Positions 3,894 to 29,066 of a DNA stretch of 64,000 nucleotides are shown piece by piece. Position numbers and translations under genes: made by a program. The notes below the pieces were generated by a model that ran no database searches, was not told the origin of the DNA, and saw only the letters and a program-made list of their open reading frames with translations. Numbering within the stretch: position 1 is the first letter of the stretch; every line of letters starts with the position of its first letter. This DNA comes from an uncultured Sandaracinaceae bacterium (lineage in GTDB: Bacteria; Myxococcota_A; Polyangia; Polyangiales; Houyiibacteriaceae): positions 52,166 through 116,165 of the forward strand of contig CAZBWQ010000001.1 in assembly GCA_964495565.1 (NCBI GenBank), given 5' to 3'.

Positions 3894-3940
3894 CAGCGCA
3901 CGGCGCCAAAGTATAGGGCCCACTCGGTGTGGCCCCCTCG

Positions 3941-5215: not shown

Positions 5216-5248
5216 TGGAGTCGGCGTCCGAGCCCGTGTGCCGAGAGC

Positions 5249-6700: not shown

Positions 6701-6710
6701 CCGCGCTGGC

Positions 6711-7958: not shown

Positions 7959-7992
7959 CGGAGGGGATCTATCACGTCGAAGGCCGAGTGGC

Positions 7993-10464: not shown

Positions 10465-10567
10465 CTTCGCCGAGCGGGGTGGCGCAGCATATTGGGCCTG
10501 GACCCAAGCTGCCAACCGCCTGCTCGCCGCTTTGTGGGCCAGTTGAAAACGAAATCCACTTGTGACG

Positions 10568-10589: not shown

Positions 10590-10606
10590 TGGCGTAACTT
10601 TTGCAT
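10590..10606 (+). promoter_or_regulatory. candidate sigma-54 (-24/-12) promoter TGGCGT-AACTT-TTGCAT
   Basis: It matches TGGCAC-N5-TTGCW with the invariant GG and GC at the correct spacing. It lies just upstream of the CDP-alcohol phosphatidyltransferase gene. Confidence 0.4.
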
Positions 10607-10618
10607 ATCTGCTGCCCC

Positions 10619-11608
10619 ATGCGGCAGCCGATGCCAGTTCTTCCTCCGCTCGAGAGCGTGCTGAAGTCCAACGACGTCGAGGATCCCGTCAATCGATGGG
10701 TCCATCGCACGCTCGCCTATCTATTCGTGCGGTCGACGTTCAAGACACCCATCACCCCGAACATGATTACCTTTTCCGCGATCATCCTCGGGCTCATCTC
10801 CGGCGTGGCGATGATTTGGGGAACGCCGCACGCGATGGTGGTGGGCGGCCTCTGCCTGTGGGCCGCTGCGATTCTCGATGGCGCCGACGGAATTTTGGCG
10901 CGGGCTAAGAATCTTCACTCGGAGTTCGGTCGTGCCCTCGACGGATCGGCCGATGCGCTTGTCGCAATTTTCACTGTTTTTCCGGCCTTTTACCACATCT
11001 GGGACAAGCACCAGAACCCTTACCATCTGCTGCTGATGGTGCCGGCCCTCCTGCTGACGGTCATGCACTTGGCCATTTACGACTTCTACAAGGAGTCCTA
11101 TCTCCGCGCGACCCGGGGCAAGGAGGGAAGCGAGGGCCATGACGCGGACCACATTGAACAAACCGTGGAGTCGGCCCGGACCAAGGGCCCGGTCATTCGA
11201 GCCGCGATCCGCTGGGTCCTGGTTCCGCACTTGAAGCGGCAAAAAGCAGCGATCACGCGGCTGAACCCGGATGCCTGGCGCCTCAGCCAGCAGCTCCAGG
11301 GCGACGAACGAACCGCAGCGATCTACCGCGAGGAGAACCTCGGGCCCATGCAGCTTTGGGCGATGATTTCCTTGGCGCCGCACAGCTACTTGATGGCGAT
11401 CTGCGCCATGATGGATCGCCTCGATCTTTACCTTTACATTCGAGTATTTGGCATGAACGCGATCTTCTTGATCGTCGCGATCTGGCAGCGCCATGCGACC
11501 AAGCGGACGCTCGAACGGCTGGCCGGAGGCGGCGGCCTGGAGCTGAGCGACCGGATCTATGGCGTGGCAGGTTTGCAACACCCCCGTGAACAGGGTTCAC
11601 GGGTGTGA
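10619..11608 (+). CDS. CDP-alcohol phosphatidyltransferase family protein (DIPPS/PI-synthase-like)
   Basis: The full signature D-x2-D-G-x2-A-R-x8-G-x3-D-x3-D is present in LDGADGILARAKNLHSEFGRALDGSADAL. The protein is multi-TM. The ORF opens with TTG at 10601, and the first ATG is at 10619. Confidence 0.85.
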   Translation: MRQPMPVLPPLESVLKSNDVEDPVNRWVHRTLAYLFVRSTFKTPITPNMITFSAIILGLISGVAMIWGTPHAMVVGGLCLWAAAILDGADGILARAKNLHSEFGRALDGSADALVAIFTVFPAFYHIWDKHQNPYHLLLMVPALLLTVMHLAIYDFYKESYLRATRGKEGSEGHDADHIEQTVESARTKGPVIRAAIRWVLVPHLKRQKAAITRLNPDAWRLSQQLQGDERTAAIYREENLGPMQLWAMISLAPHSYLMAICAMMDRLDLYLYIRVFGMNAIFLIVAIWQRHATKRTLERLAGGGGLELSDRIYGVAGLQHPREQGSRV

Positions 11609-11652
11609 GGTAGGCAACACAACGAACGCCTCCACCAAAAGGGTGATATCTG

Positions 11653-12465
11653 ATGCTCACGAGAAGAAAGCCGTCGCGCGCGCTCATTCTGGCAGCTGGT
11701 TTCGGCAGCCGCCTCGGCAACGGCGACGAGGCACCGAAGCCGCTGCGCGAGGTCGCCGGGGTCCCGCTCATCGTTCGGGTGATTCACGCTCTCGCAGAGC
11801 AGGACATCCATGAAATCGGCATCGTCGTCGGTCACCGCGCCGACGAGCTCGTGAGAGCCCTCGCCGAGTACGATTTCGAGCCCGAGCTCAGCTTCTTCCT
11901 CAACGAGGAATACGAGAAACCGAACGGCACCTCGGTGCTCGCTGCGCGCGATTTCATCACCGAGCCGACGCTCCTCTTGATGAGCGATCACTTGTGGTCG
12001 CCCCGGCTTTTGGAGGCCGTGGCCTCGTATCCGGTGACCGAGGGTGAGTCCGTGCTCGGTGTCGACTCTCACATCGACGCCTGTTTCGACCTCGACGACG
12101 CGACCAAAGTCAAAGTGCGCAGCGGCCGGATCGAGCAGATCGGCAAGCAAATCAGCGATTACAATGCGCTCGACACCGGGGTTTTCCTGATCACGCCGGC
12201 GCTCGTCGAAGCCCTCGACGCAGCGAACGGCCCGCAGGGCTGCTCCCTTTCGCAGGGCGTGGCCGCCCTGGCCGCCGAGGGGCGCATGAAAGCCGCCGAC
12301 GTCGACGACGCGATCTGGATTGACGTCGATACCCCGGAAGCGCACGCGGAAGCCGAGCGCCTCATCGCCGCGCTCGGGGAGGATTTGGATGGCGCCCGAC
12401 GGGAGCTCGGTATAGTAGCGGCCCAAGGAGTTCGACATGGCGCCACCGCAAATCAAGCCTGCTAG
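11653..12465 (+). CDS. NTP-transferase (MobA-like/IPCT-like cytidylyltransferase)
   Basis: The N-terminal LILAAGFGSRLG...PKPL nucleotide-binding loop is present. Its position between the CDP-alcohol transferase and MIPS supports the call. Confidence 0.75.
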   Translation: MLTRRKPSRALILAAGFGSRLGNGDEAPKPLREVAGVPLIVRVIHALAEQDIHEIGIVVGHRADELVRALAEYDFEPELSFFLNEEYEKPNGTSVLAARDFITEPTLLLMSDHLWSPRLLEAVASYPVTEGESVLGVDSHIDACFDLDDATKVKVRSGRIEQIGKQISDYNALDTGVFLITPALVEALDAANGPQGCSLSQGVAALAAEGRMKAADVDDAIWIDVDTPEAHAEAERLIAALGEDLDGARRELGIVAAQGVRHGATANQAC

Positions 12466-13750
12466 CGGCAAGCTCGGGGTCCTGCTGCCCGGAATGGGCG
12501 CAGTGGGCACCACCTTCATCGCCGGCACCCTGCTCGCGCGCAGGGGGCTGGGTCATCCCATCGGGTCGCTGACGCAGATGGGGAGACTGAGACTCGGGAA
12601 GCGAACCGAGGGTCGCTCGCCCTTGATCCGGGACTTCGTGCCGCTGGCGGGCATGGACGACATCGTGTTCGGAGGATGGGATCTGTTTCCGCAGAATGCC
12701 TACGAGGCGGCGGTCGAGGCGGACGTCCTTTCGAAAGAGCATCTCGACGCGGTCAAAGACGAGCTCTCCGCCATCAAGCCGATGGAATCCGTCTTCTTTC
12801 CGGAGTTCGTGAAGAGGCTACGGGGCGAGCACACCAAGAAGGGTGCAGACAAGATGGAGCTCGCCGAGGCCGTGCGCGAAGACATTCGCCGTTTCAAGGC
12901 AGACAACGGGCTCGAGCGTTGCGTCGCCGTCTGGTGTGGCTCGACCGAGGTCTTTCGCGAGCGGACCGACGTCCATGAGTCGATCGCGAAGTTCGAGGAA
13001 GGCTTGCGCCGGTCTGATCCCGCGATCAGCCCTTCGCAAGTCTATGCCTACGCGTGTCTGCGCGAAGAAGTCGGCTTCGCCAACGGTGCTCCGCACTTGA
13101 CGGTCGGCGGCGTTCCCGCGCTTCTCGAGCTTTCGCACGAGACCCAGACTCCGGTCTCCGGAAAAGACTTCAAGACGGGTCAGACCTTGATGAAGACGAT
13201 CCTCGCACCAGGCCTTCGAGCACGCGTGCTGGGCATCCGAGGTTGGTTCTCCACCAACATCTTGGGGAACCGGGACGGCGAGGTGCTCGACGATCCGGAG
13301 AGCTTCAAGTCGAAAGAGGTGAGCAAGCTCGGCGTTCTCGAGACGATCTTGCAGCCGCAGCTCGAGCCCGAGCTCTACGGAAACCTGTATCACCAGGTGC
13401 GAATCAACTACTACCCGCCGCGCGGCGACCAGAAAGAGGGCTGGGACAACATCGACATCTTCGGTTGGCTCGGCTACCCGATGCAGATCAAGATCGACTT
13501 TCTGTGCCGTGATTCGATTCTGGCCGCACCACTGGTGCTCGATCTGGCCCTGTTCACCGACCTTTCCCACCGCGCCGGCCTGAGCGGCATTCAGGAGTGG
13601 CTCTCGTTCTATTACAAGAGCCCGATCACGCCAGAAGGGCTCTACCCGGAAAACAACCTCTTCGTCCAACTCGGGAAGCTCAAAAACACCCTTCGCTGGA
13701 TGCAAGGTGAGGAGCTCATCACCCACCTCGGGCGGGAATACTACGACTGA
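12437..13750 (+). CDS. ino1: myo-inositol-1-phosphate (inositol-3-phosphate) synthase
   Basis: AAGGAG lies 6 nt upstream of the ATG at 12437. The 437-aa protein has an N-terminal Rossmann-like GVLLPGMGAVGTT and overall resembles the archaeal/bacterial-type MIPS. Confidence 0.85.
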   Translation: MAPPQIKPASGKLGVLLPGMGAVGTTFIAGTLLARRGLGHPIGSLTQMGRLRLGKRTEGRSPLIRDFVPLAGMDDIVFGGWDLFPQNAYEAAVEADVLSKEHLDAVKDELSAIKPMESVFFPEFVKRLRGEHTKKGADKMELAEAVREDIRRFKADNGLERCVAVWCGSTEVFRERTDVHESIAKFEEGLRRSDPAISPSQVYAYACLREEVGFANGAPHLTVGGVPALLELSHETQTPVSGKDFKTGQTLMKTILAPGLRARVLGIRGWFSTNILGNRDGEVLDDPESFKSKEVSKLGVLETILQPQLEPELYGNLYHQVRINYYPPRGDQKEGWDNIDIFGWLGYPMQIKIDFLCRDSILAAPLVLDLALFTDLSHRAGLSGIQEWLSFYYKSPITPEGLYPENNLFVQLGKLKNTLRWMQGEELITHLGREYYD

Positions 13751-17661: not shown

Positions 17662-19014
17662 CTAGGCGCGTGTGAGCCACCAGAGCCGCGCGCCGAGCAG
17701 CACGGCGGCGGAGGCTAGGCCCGCCAAGAGGCCCCACCAAACACCCACCGCTCCGAGCGTGCTTTCGAGCCCGAGCCACGCCGAGACTGGGAACCCGATC
17801 GCCCAATAGCTCACGGCCGTGATCAGCATGGGCACACGGACGTCCTTCAAGCCGCGAAGCGCCTGGTTGGCGGCAACCTGGGTGGCGTCGAAAAGCGCGA
17901 ACGCGGCGGCGATGGGCAGAAACGACGCGACGAGCCCGAGCACCCGGCTGGCGGACGGGTCCCGGACCTCGAGGTAGAGGTCGGCGATGCCTCGTGGCGC
18001 GATCATCACGGGCACGGCCACGAGCATGATCGCTCCGATGCAGGCGAGAATCGAGACCACCGAGGCCCTTCGAACGCCTTCGCGGTCTCCCTTGCCCGCC
18101 ATCAGGCCCACGCGCACCGCACCGGCCATCGACAAGCCGAAAGGCATCATGAATGCGATGGCCGCGACGTTCAGCGCCACCTGGTAGGCTGCCATCTCAT
18201 CGACACCGATGCGGCCCATCAGAAAGACGGCGGCATTGAACAGCATGGCTTCGAAGGCCGAGGTCAAGCTCATCGGCCAGCTCAGGTGGACGATCTCGCG
18301 CAATCGGGAAGGGGATGCTTCGAAGAAGCCCTCGAATAGATGAAAACGCCGGCTCTCGGGCTCGAGCTGGATGTAGAGCACGAGAACGAAGAAGCCGATT
18401 ACGTTCGAGAGCGAGGAGGCGACTCCCGCGCCCACGAGCTCCAATCGCGGAAAGCCCCAGTTCCCGTAGATCAAGAGCCAGTTGAGAAAGGCATTGAGTG
18501 CCGTCGTCAGGACGATGAACAACAGAGGCGCGCGCGTGCGTCCGATGGCCGCCAGAAAATTCCGAAGCGCCATGATCGCCACCATGAAGGGAAGCCCCGG
18601 CGCGAGGGCGAGCACGTAAGGCTCCGCCAGTGCCGCGGCGATGGCGGGTTGGCCGAGGGCCAGAGCGATTTCCTGGCTGAAGAAAAACACCATCGAAAGC
18701 GCGGCAACACCCAGCCCGATGGTCCAGAGCGCCATGCGCACCGATACCCGCACGTCTTCGACGTCGTCGGGGTTGGCCCCGAGGGCCTGGCTCACCATGG
18801 GCGACACGGCCATCGCCGGGCCGAACCCGAACAGAAAGACCGCGTACAGAATCACCAGGCCGAGCGAGGCGCCGGCGAGTGGGTCGGCGCCGAGCTGTCC
18901 GATCATCAGCACGTCGACCGTGCTGATCGAGAACTGGACGAGCTGCGTCAGCCCCATCGGCACCCCGATGGACAACAGCTCTCGAACCTCGCGCCGCCAA
19001 AGATGCTTCGTCAC
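17662..19014 (-). CDS. MATE family efflux transporter
   Basis: 450 aa with 12 predicted TM segments. The N-terminus (REVRELLSIGVPMGLTQLVQFSISTVDVLMIGQLG) is typical of NorM/DinF. Confidence 0.85.
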   Translation of the reverse strand: MTKHLWRREVRELLSIGVPMGLTQLVQFSISTVDVLMIGQLGADPLAGASLGLVILYAVFLFGFGPAMAVSPMVSQALGANPDDVEDVRVSVRMALWTIGLGVAALSMVFFFSQEIALALGQPAIAAALAEPYVLALAPGLPFMVAIMALRNFLAAIGRTRAPLLFIVLTTALNAFLNWLLIYGNWGFPRLELVGAGVASSLSNVIGFFVLVLYIQLEPESRRFHLFEGFFEASPSRLREIVHLSWPMSLTSAFEAMLFNAAVFLMGRIGVDEMAAYQVALNVAAIAFMMPFGLSMAGAVRVGLMAGKGDREGVRRASVVSILACIGAIMLVAVPVMIAPRGIADLYLEVRDPSASRVLGLVASFLPIAAAFALFDATQVAANQALRGLKDVRVPMLITAVSYWAIGFPVSAWLGLESTLGAVGVWWGLLAGLASAAVLLGARLWWLTRA

Positions 19015-19154: not shown

Positions 19155-19185
19155 GAAAGTGACTTTCACTATCAGGAAGGTTCCC

Positions 19186-21505: not shown

Positions 21506-21617
21506 GTGCTTCGGCGCGAGCATAGCGGCGCGAGCCAAGCGCGACAGCTTCGGGCCGGCCACGACCGGACGGTTTTTCCTTGCGCGCTGCGTCGAGGGAT
21601 GGTAGTTCTCGCGCAAT

Positions 21618-21632
21618 TGATTTTCATTTTCA
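21618..21632. promoter_or_regulatory. Fur-box-like operator TGATTTTCATTTTCA inside an AT-rich island (21615..21650)
   Basis: It matches the 7-1-7 Fur consensus TGATAATnATTATCA at 11 of 14 defined positions. It lies 24 nt upstream of the lipoprotein ATG at 21656. This is the only strongly AT-rich patch in the region. Confidence 0.5.
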
Positions 21633-21655
21633 ATATCAATAATGCGAGACCAACA

Positions 21656-23113
21656 ATGAAAATAGCGACTCGGTTCCTAGTTCTTGCGACCTTGGCCTCG
21701 TCTTTGGTGGCCTGTGGCGACGACGAAGACACAGCCAACGATCTGGTCGTCCCGGCGACCTATCGATTCGAGCGCGACGGCGCTTCGACCGTCGCGTACA
21801 CCGGCCAAATCACCCGACAAGTATTGATCGAGGATCTCGTAGGCCTGATGAAGACGATCAGCGAAGAGGTCCTCGCAGGCGAGAACCTCGACCGGTACGA
21901 CACGGCGGAGGAGGTCTATGCCTTGCTGACGCCGCTCTACGAGGAGGGGGGGATCGCCGATCCCAGCCGGCCGATTCCCGATCTGGTCGCCGAGGGCGAA
22001 GCCACCCTTCAGCAGACCTACGCCGATTTCAACGATGCGAACCTGAAGGGCAAGATCGCCGGCAACGACGCGGTGACCGATCACGCGGATTGGACCGGCG
22101 GTGACTTCGTCGGGTGGGAAACCTCGAATCTCGTCATCGACGGCGAAGGAATGCTCGGGGCGCCTGCGAGCCCCGAGGCGCTGTTGCTCGCGCTGTTTTG
22201 GACGTTTGCCGATCAGGCCGCGAGCGGAGCAGCCGGAAGCTTCCCCATCGATGCCGCGACATCGCTCTACCTGACGCCAGATGGGCACGATCTCACACAG
22301 CTCGTCGAGAAGTTCCTTCTGTCAGCCGTCAACTTCAGCCAGGTCGCCGACGATTATCTGGATGACGACGTGGCCGACAAAGGGCTGCTCGCCGCCAACG
22401 AGATCGACGGAGACGATCCGTACACCGTCCTCGAGCACTTTTGGGACGAGGGCTACGGGTATTGGGGGGCAGCCAGAGATTATGGCGCTTACACCGACGA
22501 AGAAATTGCCGCTTCCGGCGGTCGACCGGAATATGCGAACGGCTATCACGACACCGACGGCGACGGCGCCATCGACCTGAGGAGCGAATTCAACTTCGGC
22601 GCTTCGACCAATGCCGCCAAACGCGATCTTGGAAGCGCGGACTCCGCCAAGACCGACTTCACCGCCGAAGCGGACCTGGCTTGGCGCACGGGCCGCGCCA
22701 TCATCACGGATGCATACGAGACGGGCACCGAGGTCGACCTCGTCGCGCTCGGGGCGCAGCGGGACATCGCGGTCTTGGCTTGGGAAAAGGCGTACGCGGC
22801 AACCGCCATCCACTACATCAATCGAGTCTTGACCGACATGGATGCGATCGGAACGCCCGAATACAGCTTTGCCGACCATGCGAAGCACTGGTCCGAGCTC
22901 AAAGGCTTCGCCTTGAGCTTTCAGTTCAACCCTCGCTCGCCCATGAGCCAGGAGGATTTCGTCTCGTTGCACGAGGCGATCGGCGATGCTCCGATCGGCG
23001 CGTCGCAGACCTCGCCGACCGACGATGATGACTATCGGATGCGCTTGCTCAATGCACGAAACCTGATTGGAGATGCTTATGATTTCGACGAAGCGAATGT
23101 CACGGGTTGGTAG
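21656..23113 (+). CDS. DUF4856-like lipoprotein (imelysin-cluster partner)
   Basis: This is the 3' part of chimeric ORF 20492..23113. It has a signal peptide and lipobox (LASSLVACGDD). The segment PATYRFERDGASTVAYTGQITRQVL is DUF4856-like, from memory. A DxDxDG calcium-type loop is present (DTDGDGAID). Confidence 0.6.
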   Translation: MKIATRFLVLATLASSLVACGDDEDTANDLVVPATYRFERDGASTVAYTGQITRQVLIEDLVGLMKTISEEVLAGENLDRYDTAEEVYALLTPLYEEGGIADPSRPIPDLVAEGEATLQQTYADFNDANLKGKIAGNDAVTDHADWTGGDFVGWETSNLVIDGEGMLGAPASPEALLLALFWTFADQAASGAAGSFPIDAATSLYLTPDGHDLTQLVEKFLLSAVNFSQVADDYLDDDVADKGLLAANEIDGDDPYTVLEHFWDEGYGYWGAARDYGAYTDEEIAASGGRPEYANGYHDTDGDGAIDLRSEFNFGASTNAAKRDLGSADSAKTDFTAEADLAWRTGRAIITDAYETGTEVDLVALGAQRDIAVLAWEKAYAATAIHYINRVLTDMDAIGTPEYSFADHAKHWSELKGFALSFQFNPRSPMSQEDFVSLHEAIGDAPIGASQTSPTDDDDYRMRLLNARNLIGDAYDFDEANVTGW

Positions 23114-24293
23114 GCTCGGGGCGACGCTGGCTCTTTGCGCCGCGACTCTCAGTTGCAGCAGCGACAGCGGAGGCGCAGGCGGGAGCGGAGGAGACGGCGG
23201 TCTTCGGGCCGAGGTCTTGGCCGCGCTCGGCCAGAACGTGGTGGTGCCTCTGCAGGAGCGGTTTGCGGCGGATGCCTCGGCGTTGGAAGAGGCGCTCTCG
23301 CAGGCCACGCCCGAGTCTGGAGGACGAGTCGAGGCCCAAGAGGCCTGGGTGCAAGCCATGGCCACCTGGCAGCAGCTCGAGATCATGCAGCTCGGCCCGG
23401 CCGGGTCGAGCCTGACGGTGATGGGCGGGCAGGATCTCCGCGCCCGAATTTACAGCTGGCCCAATTTGAACTTGTGCCTCGTCGACCAGCAGACCGTCGA
23501 GGAGGGTTACGACGATCCCGACGTGATCGAGAGCACGGTAGGTGCTCCGCTCGGCCTTTGGGCCATCGAGTATCTCTTGTTCAACGAGGACCTCGCCAAC
23601 AACTGCTCACCGCTCAACACCATCAATCAAGACGGCACCTGGGAGGCCATGCTCGACATGATCCCCGAGCGTCGGCTCACCTACGCACACGCGCTTTCGA
23701 CCTTGGTGCGCCTCCGTGCGGACGAGCTCGTGGCGGCCTGGGCGCCGACTGGCGGGAACTTCATCGAGGAGCTCACGGATCCAGGACGCAGCGGCTCCGT
23801 GTATGGGACCGCGCAGGAAGGGCTCAACGCCGTTTCCGACGCGATGTTCTATCTCTACAAAGAGACGACGGACATGAAGGTCGGCGAGCCTCTCGGCCTC
23901 ATCAATTGCCTCGCCGAAACGTGCCCTGAGGCTCTGGAATCGCAATGGGCGGCTTGGTCGAAACAGCACGTGATCTCGAATCTGGAGGGCTTTCAGGCCC
24001 TCTTCCTCGGCACGACCACCCCCAGCCCTGGAGATACGGCGCTGGGGTTCGACGATTTGCTCGTCGACATGGGCGCTTCATCCGTTGCGACGGACATGGA
24101 GCAAGCCATCGCCGATGCCATCGCGGCGACCGAGGCGGTTCCAGGCACATTTCGTGACGCGCTGACCGCGGACCGCACCAGCATGGAGGACGCACATGCC
24201 GCCCTTTTGCGGGTGACGGACATTCTGAAGACCGACTTCGTGACGGTATTGGACCTCGAGGAGCCCGATCGGGCCGCCGGCGACAACGATTGA
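23079..24293 (+). CDS. imelysin-like (Peptidase_M75 family) lipoprotein
   Basis: GGAG lies 6 nt upstream of the ATG at 23079. A lipobox is present (LSCSS). The imelysin-type motif region LGLWAIEYLLFNED has Trp where peptidase members carry His. Confidence 0.7.
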   Translation: MISTKRMSRVGRLGATLALCAATLSCSSDSGGAGGSGGDGGLRAEVLAALGQNVVVPLQERFAADASALEEALSQATPESGGRVEAQEAWVQAMATWQQLEIMQLGPAGSSLTVMGGQDLRARIYSWPNLNLCLVDQQTVEEGYDDPDVIESTVGAPLGLWAIEYLLFNEDLANNCSPLNTINQDGTWEAMLDMIPERRLTYAHALSTLVRLRADELVAAWAPTGGNFIEELTDPGRSGSVYGTAQEGLNAVSDAMFYLYKETTDMKVGEPLGLINCLAETCPEALESQWAAWSKQHVISNLEGFQALFLGTTTPSPGDTALGFDDLLVDMGASSVATDMEQAIADAIAATEAVPGTFRDALTADRTSMEDAHAALLRVTDILKTDFVTVLDLEEPDRAAGDND

Positions 24294-24297
24294 CGCC

Positions 24298-25740
24298 ATG
24301 CTGACCGAGCTTCGCGAGAGGTTGCTCGAACCGAGGGATGCCGCCTCCTTGGCGGCATTCCGGTTCCTCTTTGGCGCGATCCTGTGCCTCAGCAGCATCC
24401 GGTTTCTTTGGAATGGCTGGGTCGAGCGCTTCTACGTCCGGCCCACGTTCTTTTTCAAGTACTGGGGTTTCGAGTGGGTCGAGGTGCTGCCCGAGCCTTG
24501 GATGACCGCGGCGTACGTGGCTTTGGCCGTGCTCGGCGCGTTCGTCGCCGTCGGCTTCCTCTATCGCGTCTCCATCATCGCGCTCTTCGTTCTGTTCACC
24601 TACGTCGAGCTCATCGACGTCACCAACTACCTGAACCACTACTACCTGGTCAGCCTGCTCGCCTTCTTGATGTGCTTCATGCCGCTCGGTCGGACCTATT
24701 CGGTCGATGCGCGGCTTTGGCCCGATGCCAGGCGGGGCACCGTTCCGGCGTGGATGCTGTACTTGATGCGCTTCCAGATCGGCGTCGTGTACTTCTACGC
24801 AGGGATCGCGAAGCTCCAACCCGACTGGCTCGTTCATGCACAGCCCTTGGGGATCTGGCTCGCGGCGCGCACCGAAACGCCCATCATCGGCGCGCTGCTC
24901 ACGTGGCCCGCCATGCCGCACATCATGAGCTGGGCCGGCTTTTTGAACGATACGCTGGTCGTGCCGTTTCTCCTGTGGCGAAAGACGCGGCCATACGCGT
25001 TCGCGACGGTCTTCGTGTTTCACCTGTGCACGCACCTCTTGTTCGTGATCGGGGTCTTCCCCTTCTTGATGGTGAGCGGCGCGACGCTGTTCTTCGACGC
25101 GGATTGGCCGCGCAAGCTCGTGCAGCGTCTTCGCGGTTCGGCGATCGGGCAGCGCGGTGTGGCTGATTCTTTGGAAGCGAGCGCGCGGCAGCAGACGGCT
25201 CCGGCGGGCCGATGGTCGCCTATGGCTGCGACGCTAGTCGCTGGGTACTGCATCTTCCAGGTTCTGATGCCTCTTCGTACCTTCGCGTATCCGGGCGACG
25301 TGCTTTGGCACGAGCAGGGCATGCGGTACTCGTGGCGGGTGATGGTGCGCGAAAAGAACGGCAGCATTCGCTATCGAGTCCGTTGGCGCGATGCCGATCG
25401 CGAGGTGCTCGTCTCCCCGAGCCAATACCTCACGATGCACCAGGAGCGAGAGATGTCGGGTCAGCCCGATCTGATCTTGCAGTTGGCCCACCGGATTGCC
25501 GAGGACTTCGAGAGCCGCGGCCATCAGGACATCGAAGTCCGGGTCGATGCGCTGGTTTCGCTCAACGGCCGGCGGGCGGTTCCGATGATCGATCCCCATG
25601 CGAATCTGGTAGACCAGCCCGACACGATCGCCGTGATGCCTTGGATCTCCCAGTCGCCGCCAGATGATCCTCTGCGTGCTTATCCTCGCGGCGGCTCCTC
25701 GCTCGACCTGGTTGCCACGTTTGCCCGAGGATCGAAGTGA
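24298..25740 (+). CDS. vitamin K-dependent gamma-carboxylase homolog (HTTM domain plus lumenal-type C-terminal domain)
   Basis: The N-terminus (ASLAAFRFLFGAILCLSSIRF ... YVELIDVTNYLNHYYLVSLLAFLMCF) resembles the human GGCX N-terminal/HTTM region. The C-terminus (WHEQGMRYSWRVMVREKNGSIRYRV ... VSLNGRRAVPMIDP) resembles its lumenal domain. Both comparisons are from memory. Confidence 0.85.
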   Translation: MLTELRERLLEPRDAASLAAFRFLFGAILCLSSIRFLWNGWVERFYVRPTFFFKYWGFEWVEVLPEPWMTAAYVALAVLGAFVAVGFLYRVSIIALFVLFTYVELIDVTNYLNHYYLVSLLAFLMCFMPLGRTYSVDARLWPDARRGTVPAWMLYLMRFQIGVVYFYAGIAKLQPDWLVHAQPLGIWLAARTETPIIGALLTWPAMPHIMSWAGFLNDTLVVPFLLWRKTRPYAFATVFVFHLCTHLLFVIGVFPFLMVSGATLFFDADWPRKLVQRLRGSAIGQRGVADSLEASARQQTAPAGRWSPMAATLVAGYCIFQVLMPLRTFAYPGDVLWHEQGMRYSWRVMVREKNGSIRYRVRWRDADREVLVSPSQYLTMHQEREMSGQPDLILQLAHRIAEDFESRGHQDIEVRVDALVSLNGRRAVPMIDPHANLVDQPDTIAVMPWISQSPPDDPLRAYPRGGSSLDLVATFARGSK

Positions 25741-28229
25741 GCCGAGTCGGTTCGAGAGGTCGCTCGCCGTCGCAAGGATGGCTTCGATGCTGTCTGGCGA
25801 TTGCGTTGCTCGTTGGATGGAGTCGCGCTCGCGCGCAAGAGGCGGAAGTGCCTCCCGACCCTCCCGTGGGGTCGCAGCCACCAGCTCCGGCCGAACCGCC
25901 GGACCAGGAAGCGGCGCCCGAGGACAGCGTCGACGATGCGATGCTGGAAGAGGAGCTCGATCTTCTCGAGGAGCAGGTCTTCGAGGAAGACGAAGGGGCC
26001 GAAACGGTGGCCCCTTCCGAAGCCGACGCTCGCGAAGCTGCGGAGCCTCGAGCGCGAATCCCCGGCGATGAGCCGATGCCGGAGCTTCGCGAGGTGACGG
26101 TCCGCTACACGCCCGAGGACATCTTTCGGATGGGCGGGTCGGTCCAGACTCTCGATCAGAGGCAGTTGGAGACGCTGCAATACGACGACCCCAATGCCGT
26201 GTTGCTGCAAGTGCCGGGTGTGTACATCCGCCAGGAAGATGGTTTCGGCTTGCGCCCCAACATCGGTCTTCGCGGCACGAACCCGAACCGAAGCTCGAAG
26301 GTCACTTTGATGGAGGACGGCGTGCTTTTCGGGCCTGCGCCGTATTCGGCTCCGGCTGCTTACTACTTTCCGATGATGGGGCGCATCACCGGCGTCGAGG
26401 TGTTCAAGGGGCCGGCGGCAATTCTGTATGGACCGCAGACCGTGGCGGGCGCGATCAACTACCTGAGCCGACCCGTTCCCGAGGAGCCACGCGGCCAAAT
26501 CGACCTTTCGTACGGACGCTTTCAAACGTTCCGTGGTCATTTGCACTACGGACGACAGAACGATTGGGGCGGATTCGTCATCGAGGGAATCCACCTCGGG
26601 ACGCAAGGGTTCAAGGAAATCGACGGCGGATTCGGGCGCGGCAATACCGGGTTTCAACGAAGCGAGCTTCTCTTCAAAGGGCACGTCAACAACGACCTCT
26701 CATCCCATGCCTTCAACCGGCTCACCGTGAAGTTCGTGGGCTCGCGCGAGAGCTCGAACGAGACCTACCTCGGTCTCACCGACGAAGATTTCGGGAACGA
26801 CCCGTATCGTCGCTATGCGGCAAGCCAGCTCGACAACATGCAGTGGTGGCGCACGGCCGTGTCGTTGACTCACAACCTCGCCGTCGGCGAGCGCATTCGC
26901 CTCGAGACGACCGCGTATCGACACGACTTCGACCGAACTTGGGAGCGGCTGAATCAGTTCCGCGATGGAACCCAGTTTCTCGACGTGCTCACTCGGCCGA
27001 ACACTCCGCCGCTCGACAGCTACTATTTGGTGCTCTCGGGCCAACAAAACTCTCCATCGGTCGATGGGGGGACCGGCAATCAGGACCTGATGATCATCAG
27101 CAACAAGCGCCGGTTCGTGGCGATGGGGGTTCAAACTCGGCTCCGGGCCGACTTCGACACTGGCAAGGTGCACCACGAGATCGAGTCAGGGCTTCGTTTT
27201 CACTACGACTCCGTCGATCGCTTTCAGCCCGAGGAAGGGTACCGCATGGAGAACATGCAGCTCGTCTGGGACGGTCTGACCTACCAACAAAACCCGGATC
27301 TGCTGCGCGACGACAACAAAGGGGAGGCTCAGGCGCTCGCCGGCTATCTGATGTACGGCATCGAAGTAGCCGACTTCGTGATCAAGCCCGGCGTTCGCGT
27401 CGAGTACATCCGCACCTTCTTCGAGGACGAGAAAGATGCGCCCGAGCTCGGCCGCGTCCAAGAAGATCCCCAGCTCGTGTTTTTGCCCGGCATCGGGCTT
27501 CAGTACACCATCTTCGAAGGCTTCGCTGCGCTTGCTGGTGTGCATCGGGGCTTCAGTGCAGTGACGCCAGGCAACCGCGACACCGCGGATCCCGAGCTTT
27601 CCATCAACTACGAAGGGGGTTTTCGCTACGTGACCAAGGATTCCCTCGGGTTTGCCGAGGCCATCGGCTTCTTCAACGACTACAGCAACATCACGAGCGA
27701 ATGCACGCTGTCTAGCGGATGCAACCCCGACTTGGTCAACGAACAGTTCAACAACGGGCGGGCCTTCATCGGGGGCATCGAGGTGCTGGGTGGGTACAGC
27801 GTCCCCCTTCCGCGCGAGCTCAACATGCCTCTGCGCGTCTCGTACACGTACACCAAGGCCACGTACAGGACGACGTTCGATTCTCCAGACCCCACGATTG
27901 GGGACGTCACCAAAGGGGATCCGATTCCTTACGTGCCCGCACACGTTCTGAACGCGCAGCTCGGATTGGAGCAGACCCACTGGGGCACCTATCTCGTCGG
28001 CAATTACTTCGGCAGGATGCCCGAAGGCGTCGTGGGTGTGCAGCCGCTTCCGGACACCGATGGTTATTTCGTCCTCGACATCGTGGGACGCGTCCGCTTC
28101 GAGCCGGTCGAGGCGTACGTACGTCTGCAGAACGTCACCAACACACAGGCGATCGTCGCGCGGCGCCCGTTTGGCGCCCGGCCGAACGCCCCATTTTCGT
28201 TCCAGATCGGGGCTCAAGTCACCTTCTAA
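25737..28229 (+). CDS. TonB-dependent receptor with acidic Pro/Glu-rich N-terminal extension
   Basis: A GTGA overlap joins it to the HTTM gene stop. It has a signal peptide (...GWSRARA/QEAE) and plug motifs (VTVRYTPEDIF..., VYIRQEDGFGLRPNIGLRG). The terminal beta-strand ends in ...FSFQIGAQVTF. Confidence 0.9.
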   Translation: MSRVGSRGRSPSQGWLRCCLAIALLVGWSRARAQEAEVPPDPPVGSQPPAPAEPPDQEAAPEDSVDDAMLEEELDLLEEQVFEEDEGAETVAPSEADAREAAEPRARIPGDEPMPELREVTVRYTPEDIFRMGGSVQTLDQRQLETLQYDDPNAVLLQVPGVYIRQEDGFGLRPNIGLRGTNPNRSSKVTLMEDGVLFGPAPYSAPAAYYFPMMGRITGVEVFKGPAAILYGPQTVAGAINYLSRPVPEEPRGQIDLSYGRFQTFRGHLHYGRQNDWGGFVIEGIHLGTQGFKEIDGGFGRGNTGFQRSELLFKGHVNNDLSSHAFNRLTVKFVGSRESSNETYLGLTDEDFGNDPYRRYAASQLDNMQWWRTAVSLTHNLAVGERIRLETTAYRHDFDRTWERLNQFRDGTQFLDVLTRPNTPPLDSYYLVLSGQQNSPSVDGGTGNQDLMIISNKRRFVAMGVQTRLRADFDTGKVHHEIESGLRFHYDSVDRFQPEEGYRMENMQLVWDGLTYQQNPDLLRDDNKGEAQALAGYLMYGIEVADFVIKPGVRVEYIRTFFEDEKDAPELGRVQEDPQLVFLPGIGLQYTIFEGFAALAGVHRGFSAVTPGNRDTADPELSINYEGGFRYVTKDSLGFAEAIGFFNDYSNITSECTLSSGCNPDLVNEQFNNGRAFIGGIEVLGGYSVPLPRELNMPLRVSYTYTKATYRTTFDSPDPTIGDVTKGDPIPYVPAHVLNAQLGLEQTHWGTYLVGNYFGRMPEGVVGVQPLPDTDGYFVLDIVGRVRFEPVEAYVRLQNVTNTQAIVARRPFGARPNAPFSFQIGAQVTF

Positions 28230-28291
28230 GCACTTGGAATCCTTCAGCTCTGCTCCCTTGGCAAAAGCTTGGCGGAAAGACTTGTTGAAGA

Positions 28292-28306
28292 TGATTTTCA
28301 ATGTCA
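28292..28306. promoter_or_regulatory. second Fur-box-like site TGATTTTCAATGTCA upstream of tonB
   Basis: It shares the TGATTTTCA half-site with the box at 21618 and matches the 7-1-7 consensus at 10 of 14 positions. It lies 14 nt upstream of the ATG at 28320. Confidence 0.4.
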
Positions 28307-28319
28307 AGGTTATCCCCTC

Positions 28320-29066
28320 ATGCTGGCCCGGACTGGCAGCTACCTGATTCCGTCTTTGCTCGTGCACGGTGCATTCTTCGCTGCGTTGGCGAGCTCACCG
28401 CCGCCGCTCGAGCGCGTGGCGATGACCCGGCCGGTCGAATTCACCGTGATCACGGATCTCGGTGGCGGACGCATCGGCGACGACGAGCAAATCGGCGATG
28501 CGGCGGAGCCGACGGAGCCACCCGAGCGCATTTTCCGAAAGGTCGAGCCCAAGCCGAAGCCCAAGCGCCACGCGCCGGTCGCCAAAGCATCCGAGGAAGC
28601 CAAACCCACCCCGAGCCCGGCTCGAGACGATGGGGACTCGTCATCGGAGGTCACCAGTGGCGCCGGCAGCGGTGAGGCAAGCGCTCACTCGATGATCCAT
28701 GGCTCGGCTGGCCGCGATCCAAATGCGACCTCTTCTGGGACGGGGAGTGGTCAAGAGGGAATCGATCGGCGGTCGGCGCTTCGTGCGTGGCTCCGCGAGA
28801 TTCAGCGCGAGGTGAACAAGATTGCCACGCGCAACTACCCGAGCGCAGCGATTCGCATGCGGCTCGAGGGTCGCCTTCGTCTGGGCATCACGATCGGGAA
28901 CGACGGGGAGATCATCTCGGTCCGGGTCCTGTCTTCGTCGGGACATGCCGTGCTCGACGATTCCGCAACTGCCTCGGTGATGAGCTTGCACATTCCCGCT
29001 CCGCCCGAAGCGCTCGGGTGGCGCGAACGGGAGATCTCGCTGCCAATCCGCTACGCACTTCAGTGA
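28320..29066 (+). CDS. tonB: energy transducer TonB
   Basis: It has an N-terminal TM segment, a Pro/Lys-rich spacer (EPKPKPKRHAP) and a C-terminal TonB_C-like domain (YPSAAIRMRLEGRLRLGITIGNDGEIISVRVLSSSGHAVLD). Confidence 0.8.
   Translation: MLARTGSYLIPSLLVHGAFFAALASSPPPLERVAMTRPVEFTVITDLGGGRIGDDEQIGDAAEPTEPPERIFRKVEPKPKPKRHAPVAKASEEAKPTPSPARDDGDSSSEVTSGAGSGEASAHSMIHGSAGRDPNATSSGTGSGQEGIDRRSALRAWLREIQREVNKIATRNYPSAAIRMRLEGRLRLGITIGNDGEIISVRVLSSSGHAVLDDSATASVMSLHIPAPPEALGWREREISLPIRYALQ

What the first reader, a model, noticed from the sequence alone, without database searches (positions are those of the whole stretch)
24298..25740. Bacterial vitamin K-dependent gamma-carboxylase (HTTM) homolog embedded in an iron-type outer-membrane uptake operon
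A 480-aa polytopic protein resembles animal gamma-glutamyl carboxylase over both its N-terminal HTTM region and its C-terminal lumenal-type region. It is wedged between an imelysin-like lipoprotein and a TonB-dependent receptor whose GTG start overlaps its stop.

HTTM proteins are scattered through bacteria. To my memory, the only one studied biochemically is the Leptospira ortholog, which showed vitamin K epoxidase activity but no protein carboxylation. No bacterial substrate or physiological role has been defined.

The fixed five-gene arrangement runs DUF4856-like lipoprotein, imelysin, HTTM, receptor, TonB, behind a Fur-like box. I infer that a quinone-dependent oxidation or carboxylation chemistry is coupled to periplasmic metal capture. 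One option is creation of Gla-like Ca/Fe-chelating residues on a partner protein. Another is oxidative processing of a ferri-ligand.
Basis: partly seen in the sequence, partly recalled or inferred. Interest (0 to 1): 0.85.

Follow-up and report, generated by a model that had tools for sequence, protein, structure and literature searches.

The report
Vitamin-K-carboxylase homolog in iron-uptake operon
A bacterial relative of the human blood-clotting enzyme gamma-glutamyl carboxylase sits, with its catalytic residues intact, inside an iron-starvation operon that is conserved gene-for-gene in at least several hundred bacterial species, which gives a testable role for an enzyme family whose bacterial function is largely unknown.

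Summary
ORF 24298-25740 encodes a 480-aa, nine-helix membrane protein. It matches Pfam HTTM (277 bits) and VKGC_lumenal_dom (151 bits), and human GGCX by sequence (E 1e-38) and by predicted fold (TM 0.73-0.76).

The GGCX catalytic Lys, its Trp clamp, the Asp, the CO2-stacking Phe and the Asn-His pair are invariant. Only Tyr395 differs.

The gene is third in the operon: Fur box, DUF4856 lipoprotein, IPPA-type imelysin lipoprotein, HTTM, TonB-dependent receptor, second Fur box, TonB. The four-gene core recurs in the same order in 76-80 of 80 Bacteroidota loci and in many Myxococcota loci. Imelysin-HTTM adjacency holds in about 154 of 157 loci.

Fur boxes of the type expected for each phylum lie upstream in both phyla. 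Published Riemerella RNA-seq shows all four genes induced by iron restriction.

- TonB, and in part DUF4856, are specific to certain clades.
- MloH is a second characterised bacterial orthologue.

The mechanism is inferred, not shown. Most likely the enzyme modifies (carboxylates) the co-encoded exported lipoprotein(s) at the inner membrane. A quinol-dependent redox role replacing the usual imelysin-associated peroxidase is the main rival. I found no paper that describes the association.

The parts
21613..21637 (.). Fur-like operator: two overlapping 19-mers (21613-21631 and 21619-21637), 19 nt upstream of the first gene
   Evidence: Each 19-mer matches the Fur consensus at 14 of 19 positions. 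It is the most AT-rich 30-mer of the window. Equivalent boxes, up to 17/19, lie 5' of the first cluster gene in 31 of 66 Myxococcota/Proteobacteria loci. 55 of 76 hits fall in 2.4% of the sequence.
21656..23113 (+). DUF4856 lipoprotein (485 aa; lipobox LVA-C20)
   Evidence: Pfam PF16148, E 8e-19. It is the first gene of the module in 76 of 80 Bacteroidota loci and 31 of 80 Myxococcota/Proteobacteria loci. The AF2 model has pLDDT 94, is mostly helical, and has no PDB fold match.
23097..24293 (+). IPPA-type imelysin-like lipoprotein. The ATG at 23097 gives signal MSRVGRLGATLALCAATLS-C; the longest ORF starts at TTG 23067.
   Evidence: Pfam Peptidase_M75, E 7e-33. It matches PDB 3n8u at E 7e-8. 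It has the GxxxxE variant motif and an invariant C-terminal GDND tail. It lies immediately upstream of HTTM in about 154 of 157 evaluable loci.
24298..25740 (+). HTTM / vitamin K-dependent gamma-carboxylase orthologue (480 aa, 9 predicted TM helices plus a periplasmic domain)
   Evidence: Equivalents of human N159, H160, K218, W223, D263 and F299 are N113, H114, K172, W177, D218 and F254, invariant in 68 homologues.
25737..28229 (+). TonB-dependent outer-membrane receptor. Its GTG start overlaps the HTTM stop. It has an acidic N-terminal extension before the TonB box.
   Evidence: Pfam Plug, E 6.5e-14. Matches to NCBIfam siderophore, FecA and haem receptor models are below their cut-offs. The overlap was read directly. 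The extension was compared across loci.
28287..28305 (.). Second Fur-like box, in the 90-nt gap before the probable TonB start
   Evidence: GAAGATGATTTTCAATGTC matches at 14 of 19. The conserved form GAAGATGATTATCAATGTC (15/19) lies at the same place in L001, L002, L004, L005, L007 and L010.
28320..29066 (+). TonB (probable ATG at 28320; the longest ORF starts at TTG 28269)
   Evidence: Pfam TonB_C, E 1e-15, and TIGR01352. The start was inferred from the sequence and the position of the Fur box.

Best explanation
Shown:
- The GGCX active-site residues are intact, apart from the Tyr395 position.
- It is the third gene of a module: DUF4856 lipoprotein, IPPA-type imelysin lipoprotein, HTTM enzyme, TonB-dependent receptor, plus TonB in this clade.
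- The module carries Fur boxes, and its Riemerella orthologues are induced by iron restriction.
- The module is conserved in order across Bacteroidota and Myxococcota, and in part in Gammaproteobacteria.

Inferred:
- From helix order, the distribution of positive charges and the known GGCX topology, the active-site residues lie on the periplasmic face of the inner membrane.
- Like GGCX acting on secretory proteins in the ER, the enzyme uses a reduced quinone (menaquinol), O2 and CO2/bicarbonate.
- It would modify, most likely carboxylate, acidic residue(s) of the co-encoded lipoprotein(s). Imelysin is the first candidate and DUF4856 the second.
- This would happen as the lipoproteins emerge at the inner membrane, before they are sorted to the outer membrane or cell surface.
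- There they would work with the receptor to capture iron.
- The product would be a malonate-type (Gla or beta-carboxy-Asp) chelating group in an imelysin site that has lost the two histidines of ICMP-type imelysins.
- Candidate sites are Glu291, which is invariant and specific to this subfamily, and less specifically the D-[GN]-D C-terminal tail.
For: - Identity and fold.
- Catalytic set: N113, H114, K172, W177, D218 and F254 are invariant in 68 homologues. They map onto residues whose roles are defined in the human structures.
- Topology: the AF2 helices give an N-in, C-out arrangement. The R/K-rich loops (126-150, 227-230, 266-284) face the cytoplasm and the catalytic residues lie at the periplasmic ends of helices.
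- Conserved synteny: imelysin lies directly upstream of HTTM in about 75 of 77 evaluable loci and 79 of 80 loci. The full four-gene order holds in 76-80 of 80 Bacteroidota loci, with unrelated housekeeping flanks.
- Iron control: Fur boxes are enriched about 30-fold and about 20-fold just upstream of the first gene in the two phyla. In Riemerella, RAYM_09779 to RAYM_09794 are all up under iron restriction.
- Maturation rather than a steady-state partnership: Bacteroidota DUF4856 and imelysin begin C-S-S-D-D-D. From my own knowledge this resembles the Bacteroidota lipoprotein surface-export signal. Imelysins such as ICMP, PIBO and LruB are predicted to be outer-membrane proteins. An inner-membrane enzyme would therefore meet them only during export.
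- Subfamily-specific residues: HTTM-linked imelysins of both phyla share invariant Q102, K271 and E291. ICMP-like paralogues have His at the E291 position, inside their EDEH motif.
- Precedent: MloH shows that a bacterial orthologue can be a real carboxylase.
Against: - No direct evidence exists for any modification.
- To my knowledge (Rishavy et al. 2005), the Leptospira orthologue showed epoxidase activity but no carboxylase activity.
- Human Tyr395, which binds the substrate carboxylate, is Met here and Phe or Tyr in Bacteroidota. The surrounding motif (W-H-E-Q-G-M-R-x-S-W) is specific to this family, so the substrate is not recognised as in GGCX.
- The region C-terminal to human residue 490, about 270 residues including the CTD, has no counterpart.
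- The two most obvious acidic candidate substrates failed specificity tests. The D-[GN]-D tail is a trait of the whole IPPA family, including peroxidase-linked paralogues and Psychrobacter IPPA. The Glu-rich receptor extension is specific to certain clades.
- No VKOR-type epoxide reductase lies in the module or was found among the window ORFs I scanned.
- The module also occurs in Gammaproteobacteria and Lautropia. To my knowledge these lineages often lack menaquinone.
- E291 rests on an alignment of very divergent sequences.
Confidence: 0.4

Rival explanations
1. Redox partner, not a protein-modifying enzyme. The HTTM protein takes the place of the peroxidase (EfeB, or di-haem DHOR/DUF1111) that normally accompanies imelysin-like proteins. 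It would use quinol (with or without O2) at the periplasmic face to change the redox state of iron or of an iron ligand handled by imelysin. That could mean reducing Fe(III) for release or oxidising a ligand, with epoxidase-type turnover but no carboxylation.
For: - Imelysin-like proteins are reported to be almost always linked to a peroxidase. Here HTTM is the only enzyme in the module.
- In L133 a classical imelysin-DHOR-imelysin operon lies back to back with the HTTM module. Its IPPA-like member carries the same C-terminal tail.
- To my knowledge, the Leptospira orthologue has epoxidase activity without carboxylase activity.
- The module contains no other redox or release function and no inner-membrane permease.
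Against: - The residues that hold CO2 (F254, H114) and a substrate carboxylate (N113, H114) are as invariant as the quinol-deprotonating Lys. These residues are, however, conserved widely across HTTM proteins.
- The lipoproteins probably end up at the outer membrane or cell surface, away from an inner-membrane enzyme.
- GGCX chemistry has no known electron-transfer outlet to a metal.
Confidence: 0.25
2. Small-molecule carboxylase or oxygenase, like MloH. The enzyme would act on a low-molecular-weight iron ligand imported by the receptor, or on one exported for scavenging, and not on a protein.
For: - MloH carboxylates an aspartyl unit of a small-molecule intermediate.
- The receptor has weak similarity to siderophore and ferric-citrate receptors.
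- The human-type propeptide-binding C-terminal region is absent.
Against: - No NRPS, PKS or siderophore-synthesis genes lie in or beside the module in any phylum. Flanks are housekeeping genes or vary between loci.
- The near-absolute adjacency is to a protein (imelysin), not to biosynthetic genes.
Confidence: 0.1
3. Non-enzymatic role. The polytopic protein would be the inner-membrane permease or a scaffold of the pathway, since it is the only polytopic inner-membrane protein encoded in the module; TonB is the only other inner-membrane component.
For: The module contains an outer-membrane receptor, TonB and two lipoproteins but no recognisable inner-membrane transporter.
Against: - Complete conservation of the catalytic constellation across two phyla is not expected for a mere permease.
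- The model superposes on GGCX. To my knowledge GGCX has no transmembrane pore.
- To my knowledge, TonB-dependent systems commonly rely on unlinked inner-membrane transporters.
Confidence: 0.07

Closest known systems
[quoted passage not shown]
   Same: - The HTTM transmembrane domain and the first part of the lumenal domain are shared. Sequence E 1e-38 over human 55-490, about 24% identity in the structural alignment, TM 0.73-0.76.
- K218, W223, D263, F299, N159 and H160 are all conserved.
- The active site faces the extracytoplasmic side.
   Different: - 480 aa against 758 aa. There is no counterpart of human residues after about 490, including the CTD.
- Y395 is Met.
- The Glu-binding stretch is replaced by a family-specific W-H-E-Q-G-M-R-x-S-W motif.
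- The protein is encoded in a bacterial iron-starvation operon.
- The substrate is unknown.
Leptospira vitamin K-dependent carboxylase orthologue (Rishavy et al. 2005, from my own knowledge; not retrieved here)
   Same: It is a bacterial orthologue with both HTTM and lumenal-type regions. It was reported to oxidise vitamin K hydroquinone to the epoxide.
   Different: - Its genomic context was not examined here.
- The Leptospira imelysin LruB lies in an imelysin/peroxidase/imelysin operon, with no carboxylase mentioned in that paper.
- Whether the two enzymes are functional equivalents is untested.
MloH, the carboxylase of malonomycin biosynthesis (Law et al. 2018, as cited)
   Same: It is a bacterial GGCX orthologue, with demonstrated carboxylation of a carboxylate-bearing (aspartyl) substrate.
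   Different: MloH lies in a hybrid PKS-NRPS antibiotic cluster and acts on a small-molecule intermediate. Here there are no biosynthetic genes, and the partners are lipoproteins and a TonB-dependent receptor.
Classical Fur-regulated imelysin operons (P. aeruginosa PA4370-PA4373/ICMP, V. cholerae VC1264-1266, EfeUOB)
   Same: - Both are Fur/iron-regulated.
- Both include an IPPA-type imelysin-like lipoprotein with a GxxxxE motif and a D-G-D C-terminal tail.
- In both, one enzyme gene is locked next to the imelysin gene.
   Different: - The enzyme there is a haem peroxidase (DHOR/DUF1111 or EfeB). Here it is a quinone-dependent GGCX homologue.
- The second lipoprotein is DUF4856, not an ICMP-type imelysin.
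- A TonB-dependent receptor is part of the unit.
HTTM-DCC protein with DUF5819 partner (bioRxiv 10.64898/2026.08.19.745780)
   Same: It is another bacterial HTTM protein proposed, from gene adjacency and structure prediction, to be a vitamin K-dependent carboxylase working with a co-encoded partner.
   Different: It has a different architecture: HTTM plus a DCC1-like domain, without the VKGC lumenal domain. The partner family, the organisms (Bacillota) and the context differ, and there is no iron link.

Membership tests
HTTM / vitamin K-dependent gamma-carboxylase (GGCX) family | HTTM transmembrane domain above the Pfam gathering score | tested here: met
   PF05090, 276.8 bits against a cut-off of 27.7, covering profile positions 2-259 of 259.
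HTTM / vitamin K-dependent gamma-carboxylase (GGCX) family | VKGC lumenal domain following the membrane domain | tested here: met
   PF22777, 151.3 bits against a cut-off of 27.7, residues 309-452.
HTTM / vitamin K-dependent gamma-carboxylase (GGCX) family | Overall fold of GGCX | tested here: met
   The AF2 model (pLDDT 89) matches 16 GGCX entries at E 4e-20 to 6e-12, with TM normalised to the query of 0.63-0.76. The next hit has E 0.3.
HTTM / vitamin K-dependent gamma-carboxylase (GGCX) family | Quinol-deprotonation site: Lys218 with Trp223 and Asp263 | tested here: met
   K172, W177 and D218 align with these residues. They are invariant in 68 homologues and in 13 Bacteroidota-type representatives.
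HTTM / vitamin K-dependent gamma-carboxylase (GGCX) family | CO2 pocket: Phe299 and His160 | tested here: met
   F254 and H114 are invariant. Their roles are taken from PMC12647623.
HTTM / vitamin K-dependent gamma-carboxylase (GGCX) family | Glu-carboxylate ligands Asn159, His160 and Tyr395 | tested here: inconclusive
   N113 and H114 are conserved. Tyr395 aligns with Met342, which is at least 90% conserved in this clade, and with Phe or Tyr in Bacteroidota-type proteins.
HTTM / vitamin K-dependent gamma-carboxylase (GGCX) family | C-terminal lumenal region of the animal enzyme (after about residue 490, including the CTD) | tested here: not met
   The protein ends at residue 480, and the alignment stops at human residue 490 of 758.
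HTTM / vitamin K-dependent gamma-carboxylase (GGCX) family | Vitamin K epoxidase and carboxylase activity | not testable with these tools
   This needs an enzyme assay with menaquinol, O2 and H14CO3-.
Fur-regulated TonB-dependent iron acquisition system | Fur operator at the promoter | tested here: met
   The window has two phased 14/19 boxes at 21613-21637 and a further box at 28287. Boxes are enriched about 30-fold upstream in Myxococcota/Proteobacteria loci. A Riemerella-type box is present in 62 of 62 Bacteroidota loci. Binding itself was not tested.
Fur-regulated TonB-dependent iron acquisition system | Induction by iron limitation or loss of Fur | not testable with these tools
   This is shown only for the orthologous Riemerella cluster, RAYM_09779 to RAYM_09794. 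It has not been shown for this organism.
Fur-regulated TonB-dependent iron acquisition system | TonB-dependent receptor with a plug, plus TonB | tested here: met
   Plug E 6.5e-14 and TonB_C E 1e-15. The siderophore-receptor models score below their curated cut-offs, so the ligand is unknown.
Imelysin-like superfamily, IPPA family | Peptidase_M75 fold, with the His of GxHxxE lost (GxxxxE) | tested here: met
   PF09375, 114.8 bits. The motif reads G163-L-W-A-I-E168 here and G-F-P-A-x-D in Bacteroidota, whereas ICMP-like paralogues keep G-x-H-A-I-E.
Imelysin-like superfamily, IPPA family | Adjacent EfeB or DHOR-type peroxidase gene | tested here: not met
   No peroxidase lies in the module. HTTM is the adjacent enzyme. 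A DHOR-type operon occurs separately in L133.
MloH-type natural-product carboxylase | Location in an NRPS/PKS biosynthetic gene cluster | tested here: not met
   The window flanks are MatE, RluA-type, PanE, Alpha-E and ATP-grasp genes. No NRPS or PKS genes were found among the window ORFs scanned or in the conserved flanks of related loci.

The most novel reading that the evidence does not exclude
This module would be the first bacterial vitamin K-dependent protein-carboxylation system. A menaquinol/O2-driven carboxylase at the inner membrane would install gamma-carboxy-Glu or beta-carboxy-Asp on an exported imelysin (and/or DUF4856) lipoprotein. That would create the metal-chelating site of a widespread, Fur-controlled, TonB-dependent iron-capture machine. 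Gla-type protein chemistry would then be ancient and would serve metal acquisition in two large bacterial phyla.
Probability: 0.25. Interest if true: 0.92.

Novelty: new variant of a known kind. Interest (0 to 1): 0.72.

Why it matters
**Open question.** Bacterial GGCX/HTTM orthologues have been known for two decades, but their physiological function is largely undefined. The only natural substrate known is a Streptomyces antibiotic intermediate.

**What this adds.** The enzyme is locked into a Fur-controlled module with an imelysin lipoprotein, a second lipoprotein and a TonB-dependent receptor. The module occurs in at least several hundred species, probably more than a thousand. This points to a specific process (iron acquisition), a short list of candidate substrates, and tractable organisms for testing: Flavobacterium, Riemerella and Myxococcus.

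**If the enzyme carboxylates its partner.** Gla-type post-translational chemistry would be extended to bacteria, and the way His-less imelysins bind metal would be explained.

**If it is a redox partner.** It would define a new quinone-linked alternative to the EfeB and DHOR peroxidases.

**Applied relevance.** The module is iron-induced in the poultry pathogen Riemerella and is present in genera that include fish pathogens.

Tried and rejected
1. **C-terminal tail as the HTTM-specific substrate.** Every HTTM-linked imelysin ends in D-[GN]-D-COOH: GDND in Myxococcota/Proteobacteria and [AS]DGD in Bacteroidota. The same tail occurs on the IPPA-like member of a DHOR-peroxidase operon (L133). It also occurs on Psychrobacter IPPA orthologues, which end ...FNSTDGD. 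It is therefore a trait of the IPPA family and not HTTM-specific.

2. **Glu-rich N-terminal extension of the receptor as the substrate** (DDAMLEEELDLLEEQVFEEDE, resembling the GGCX test peptide FLEEL). It is conserved only in the window's clade. It is replaced by other acidic or Pro/Ala-rich stretches elsewhere and is absent in Gammaproteobacteria.

3. **DUF4856 as a cryptic second imelysin.** hhalign gives 2% probability, limited to the signal peptide. Foldseek finds no PDB relative.

4. **Natural HTTM-imelysin fusions.** Ten long representatives carried only HTTM plus the lumenal domain, or TPR or unassigned extensions.

5. **HTTM as a quinone-dependent disulfide oxidase for imelysin.** The four conserved Cys are confined to the Myxococcota/Proteobacteria set.

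6. **Riemerella B739_1343 as the cluster's receptor with a known phenotype.** That gene is not iron-regulated and lacks a Fur box, so no link can be drawn.

7. **Leptospira LruB as evidence of an HTTM link.** Its operon is of the imelysin/peroxidase/imelysin type, with no carboxylase mentioned.

8. **Retrieving Leptospira-like long orthologues with P0195.** The search returned Planctomycetes/Kuenenia loci without imelysin, plus more Bacteroidota modules.

9. **A fused HTTM-imelysin AF2 model.** I did not attempt it. The tool reports no contacts or PAE and accepts only window sequences or search-hit sequences.

10. **Literature searches.** Searches for HTTM with imelysin, HTTM with iron and TonB, and DUF4856 alone found nothing.
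Full report
**1. What is in the window**

The region is about 62% G+C. On the + strand lie five tightly packed genes:

| Coordinates | Product | Notes |
|---|---|---|
| 21656-23113 | DUF4856 lipoprotein | PF16148, E 8e-19; lipobox LVA-C |
| 23097-24293 | Imelysin-like lipoprotein | PF09375, E 7e-33; overlaps the previous stop by 17 nt; signal MSRVGRLGATLALCAATLS-C |
| 24298-25740 | The HTTM ORF | Starts 4 nt after the imelysin stop |
| 25737-28229 | TonB-dependent receptor | Plug E 6.5e-14; its GTG overlaps the HTTM TGA |
| 28320-29066 | TonB | Follows a 90-nt gap |

Flanking genes are unrelated: MatE, a pseudouridine synthase and a PanE-type reductase upstream; Alpha-E, a circularly permuted ATP-grasp protein and an alcohol dehydrogenase downstream. 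I scanned about 20 further window ORFs. They encode polysaccharide, inositol-lipid and acetate-metabolism functions. None is a VKOR, a menaquinone gene or a siderophore-synthesis gene.

**2. Is it a GGCX homologue?**

Yes, by three independent measures:
- Pfam HTTM scores 276.8 bits and VKGC_lumenal_dom 151.3 bits, each against a cut-off of 27.7.
- phmmer against all PDB sequences returns only human GGCX, E 1.4e-38, with query 9-439 aligned to human 55-490.
- An AF2 model built on 68 homologues (pLDDT 89, pTM 0.88) matches only GGCX cryo-EM entries by Foldseek. E is about 5e-20 and the TM-score normalised to the query is 0.73-0.76. The next hit has E 0.3.

The 2025 human structures assign roles to specific residues. 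I read their equivalents from the alignment:

| Human residue | Role | Window residue |
|---|---|---|
| N159 / H160 | Substrate carboxylate; H160 also contributes to the CO2 pocket | N113 / H114 |
| K218 | General base for the quinol | K172 |
| W223 | Stacks on K218 | W177 |
| D263 | Next to K218 | D218 |
| F299 | Stacks on CO2 | F254 |
| Y395 | Third carboxylate ligand | M342 |

All but the last are invariant in the 68-sequence alignment and in Bacteroidota-type representatives. The Y395 equivalent is Met in this clade and Phe or Tyr in Bacteroidota. It sits in a family-specific motif W-[HT]-E-[QE]-G-[MFY]-R-x-S-W. The protein has no counterpart of human residues after about 490.

The helix order of the model and the R/K-rich loops (126-150, 227-230, 266-284) give a nine-TM, N-in/C-out topology. 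This places the catalytic residues and the 150-aa C-terminal domain on the periplasmic side, as in GGCX. This topology is an inference and the known GGCX topology.

**3. Is the gene arrangement conserved?**

The family is large. A phmmer search of 1.84 billion cluster representatives gave 4,900 clusters at E <= 1e-3 and 1,639 at E <= 1e-30.

I annotated the best 80 loci by phmmer with the window's five proteins. They come from Myxococcota plus some Gammaproteobacteria (Spectribacter, Cellvibrionaceae) and Lautropia.
- Imelysin lies directly upstream of HTTM in all but two loci where the upstream flank exists.
- The receptor lies directly downstream, or is divergently transcribed upstream in Myxococcaceae.
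- DUF4856 is detectable in 31 loci.
- A DUF5122 beta-propeller protein is the conserved alternative neighbour in 28 loci lacking DUF4856; in Myxococcaceae it lies between imelysin and the divergent receptor.
- A linked TonB is found in about 15 loci, mostly the window's own clade.

The best 80 are nearly all Bacteroidota (Flavobacteriaceae, Saprospiraceae, Cyclobacteriaceae, Chitinophagales), plus a few Balneolales (Gracilimonas, Rhodohalobacter).
- 76-80 of these 80 loci show exactly DUF4856, imelysin, HTTM, receptor on one strand.
- Their flanks are housekeeping genes: HMG-CoA-lyase-like, IMPDH, DHODH and LysE.

The conserved unit is therefore four genes. It contains no inner-membrane permease, reductase or VKOR. 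The two scans may overlap in part, so "at least about 590 species, probably more than 1,000" is the safe statement.

Not every bacterial VKGC-like gene is in this module. Five Planctomycetes/Kuenenia loci lack an adjacent imelysin.

**4. Iron regulation**

The window has two hexamer-phased 14/19 matches to the Fur consensus at 21613-21637. These lie 19 nt before the first ATG, in the most AT-rich 30-mer of the window. A further 14/19 box lies at 28287, before tonB.

In the Myxococcota/Proteobacteria loci, 55 of 76 hits at 14/19 or better fall in the 2.4% of sequence just upstream of the first module gene. 31 of 66 loci have one, and the best is 17/19 in Myxococcus sp. Y35.

In Bacteroidota the E. 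coli consensus gives nothing upstream. The Riemerella Fur box (ATTTAGAATTATTCTAAAT) is found within 250 nt upstream in 62 of 62 loci, often twice. 122 of 336 hits lie in 1.8% of the sequence.

There is also experimental support. In Riemerella anatipestifer the four adjacent genes are RAYM_09779 (receptor), RAYM_09784 (annotated vitamin K-dependent gamma-carboxylase), RAYM_09789 (imelysin) and RAYM_09794 (hypothetical). All are listed among 17 genes up-regulated by iron restriction and assigned to the Fur regulon (PMC5609570). The authors do not comment on the carboxylase.

**5. What kind of imelysin is it, and what is DUF4856?**

The HTTM-linked imelysins have lost the His of the GxHxxE motif. 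The motif reads G-L-x-A-I-E in Myxococcota and G-F-P-A-x-D in Bacteroidota. This is the hallmark of the IPPA/PA4372 family.

They all end in a D-[GN]-D-COOH tail that lies outside the Pfam domain. I first took the tail for a candidate substrate. It is instead a family trait:
- The IPPA-like member of a classical imelysin-DHOR (di-haem peroxidase)-imelysin operon in L133 has it.
- Psychrobacter orthologues of the crystallised IPPA end ...FNSTDGD.
- In the IPPA crystal the last six residues are disordered.

I compared HTTM-linked imelysins of both phyla with ICMP-like and DHOR-linked paralogues. Three positions are invariant and specific to the HTTM-linked group: Q102, K271 and E291. E291 aligns with the His of the ICMP-type E-D-E-H motif. 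The alignment is between very divergent sequences, so this is a lead and not a result.

DUF4856 gives a confident, mostly helical model (pLDDT 94). It has no structural relative in PDB and no profile similarity to imelysin. It has many invariant Asp, Glu and His residues and a DxDxDG-type loop at residues 299-311.

In Bacteroidota, both lipoproteins begin C-S-S-D-D-D. From my own knowledge this resembles the phylum's lipoprotein surface-export signal.

**6. How it most likely works**

*Shown.* A GGCX orthologue with an intact catalytic set is encoded within an iron-regulated unit, next to an IPPA-type imelysin, a second lipoprotein and a TonB-dependent receptor, across two phyla. That its active site faces the periplasm is inferred from the model (section 2).

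*Inferred.* I favour a maturation role, at about 0.4. As GGCX does for secretory proteins in the ER, the enzyme would use quinol, O2 and CO2/bicarbonate. It would carboxylate acidic residue(s) of the co-encoded lipoprotein(s) while they are still at the inner membrane. This would create a malonate-type chelator in a His-less imelysin site that later works with the receptor. The arguments are:
- The residues for CO2 and for the substrate carboxylate are as conserved as the quinol base.
- The partners probably end up in the outer membrane or on the surface, where an inner-membrane enzyme cannot reach them.
- MloH proves that bacterial orthologues can carboxylate.

*Main rival, about 0.25.* HTTM would functionally replace the peroxidase that normally accompanies imelysins. 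It would perform quinol-linked redox or oxygenase chemistry without carboxylation, as reported for the Leptospira enzyme (my own knowledge).

*Minor rivals.* A small-molecule substrate has about 0.1 and a permease or scaffold role about 0.07.

*Open problems for any vitamin K model.* No epoxide reductase is linked to the module. The module also occurs in proteobacterial lineages that, to my knowledge, often lack menaquinone.

**7. Novelty**

Automated annotation already names the protein "HTTM domain-containing protein" or "vitamin K-dependent gamma-carboxylase", so the homology itself is not new.

The association with imelysin, DUF4856 and a TonB-dependent receptor under Fur control is not described in any paper I could search. 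It appears only as uncommented rows in the Riemerella table. The imelysin survey of 2011 reports peroxidase contexts only. The library covers open-access papers and bioRxiv only, so a description elsewhere cannot be excluded.

I classify the finding as a new variant of a known kind of system, namely imelysin-based, Fur-regulated, TonB-dependent iron acquisition. It has a realistic chance of hiding new biochemistry.

Interest is 0.72. The finding is robust and widespread, and it turns a long-standing question (what bacterial GGCX orthologues do) into direct experiments. The mechanism remains inferred.

Noticed in passing
window 25839-26100 (receptor residues ~35-120): After its signal peptide the TonB-dependent receptor has a Pro- and acid-rich extension of about 90 aa before the TonB box (...DDAMLEEELDLLEEQVFEEDEGAE...PELREVTVRY). 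The motif is conserved in the closest clade (L001-L014). Other Polyangiales, Sandaracinaceae and Bradymonadales have different D/E-rich stretches, Myxococcaceae have Pro/Ala-rich ones, and Gammaproteobacteria have none. Its function is unknown. It could bind cations or be a clade-specific substrate.
   Followed up: partly
window 28287-28305: A second Fur-like box (GAAGATGATTTTCAATGTC) lies between the receptor stop and the probable TonB ATG at 28320. It falls inside the longest TonB ORF. It is conserved as GAAGATGATTATCAATGTC in six close relatives. This suggests separate iron control of tonB.
   Followed up: partly
window 21656-23113 (DUF4856): The AF2 model is very confident (pLDDT 94, pTM 0.91), yet Foldseek finds no PDB relative (best E 0.46, TM <= 0.18). 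The family has a DxDxDG-type loop (HDTDGDGAIDLRSE, residues 298-311), many invariant Asp, Glu and His residues, and a conserved C-terminal Trp in the Myxococcota/Proteobacteria proteins (Bacteroidota ones end differently). It may be an unsolved fold with a metal site.
   Followed up: partly
window 24279-24290 (codons G405-D408 before the stop at 24291-24293); L081-L160 imelysins; L133 11199-12275; P0392 and others: IPPA-type imelysin-like proteins from Myxococcota, Bacteroidota, Gammaproteobacteria and Psychrobacter all end in D-[GN]-D-COOH, after a conserved hydrophobic stretch. ICMP-type paralogues do not. The tail is disordered in the IPPA crystal. The one imelysin survey I read (PMC3143127) mentions this region only as disordered. 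Its role is unknown.
   Followed up: partly
L133 11199-15039 (- strand); L119 10779-14561: In Lacinutrix and Polaribacter the HTTM module lies back to back with a classical operon: ICMP-type imelysin, DHOR di-haem peroxidase (PF06537), IPPA-type imelysin. The gene content was confirmed by Pfam for L133 only; L119 shows only imelysin-like hits. The two kinds of imelysin system coexist and may cooperate.
   Followed up: partly
L028 (Myxococcus sp. Y35) 2348-10535: The Myxococcaceae variant of the module has the receptor and a DUF5122 beta-propeller protein transcribed divergently from imelysin-HTTM. A 17/19 Fur box lies between them, and an M48 peptidase gene follows HTTM.
   Followed up: partly
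L161, L162, L165, L169, L170: Planctomycetes and 'Candidatus Kuenenia' encode HTTM plus lumenal-domain proteins with no adjacent imelysin, DUF4856 or receptor. This is a different, unexplored context for bacterial GGCX orthologues.
   Followed up: no
window 10598-13750: Three adjacent genes encode a CDP-alcohol phosphatidyltransferase, an NTP-transferase and a myo-inositol-1-phosphate synthase. This looks like an inositol-phospholipid pathway. It lies next to an MMPL transporter and polysaccharide-synthesis genes.
   Followed up: no
window 19155-19173: A palindromic 14/19 Fur-like site (GAAAGTGACTTTCACTATC) lies in the gap between the MatE gene (17662-19014, - strand) and the pseudouridine synthase gene. 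It was not examined further.
   Followed up: no
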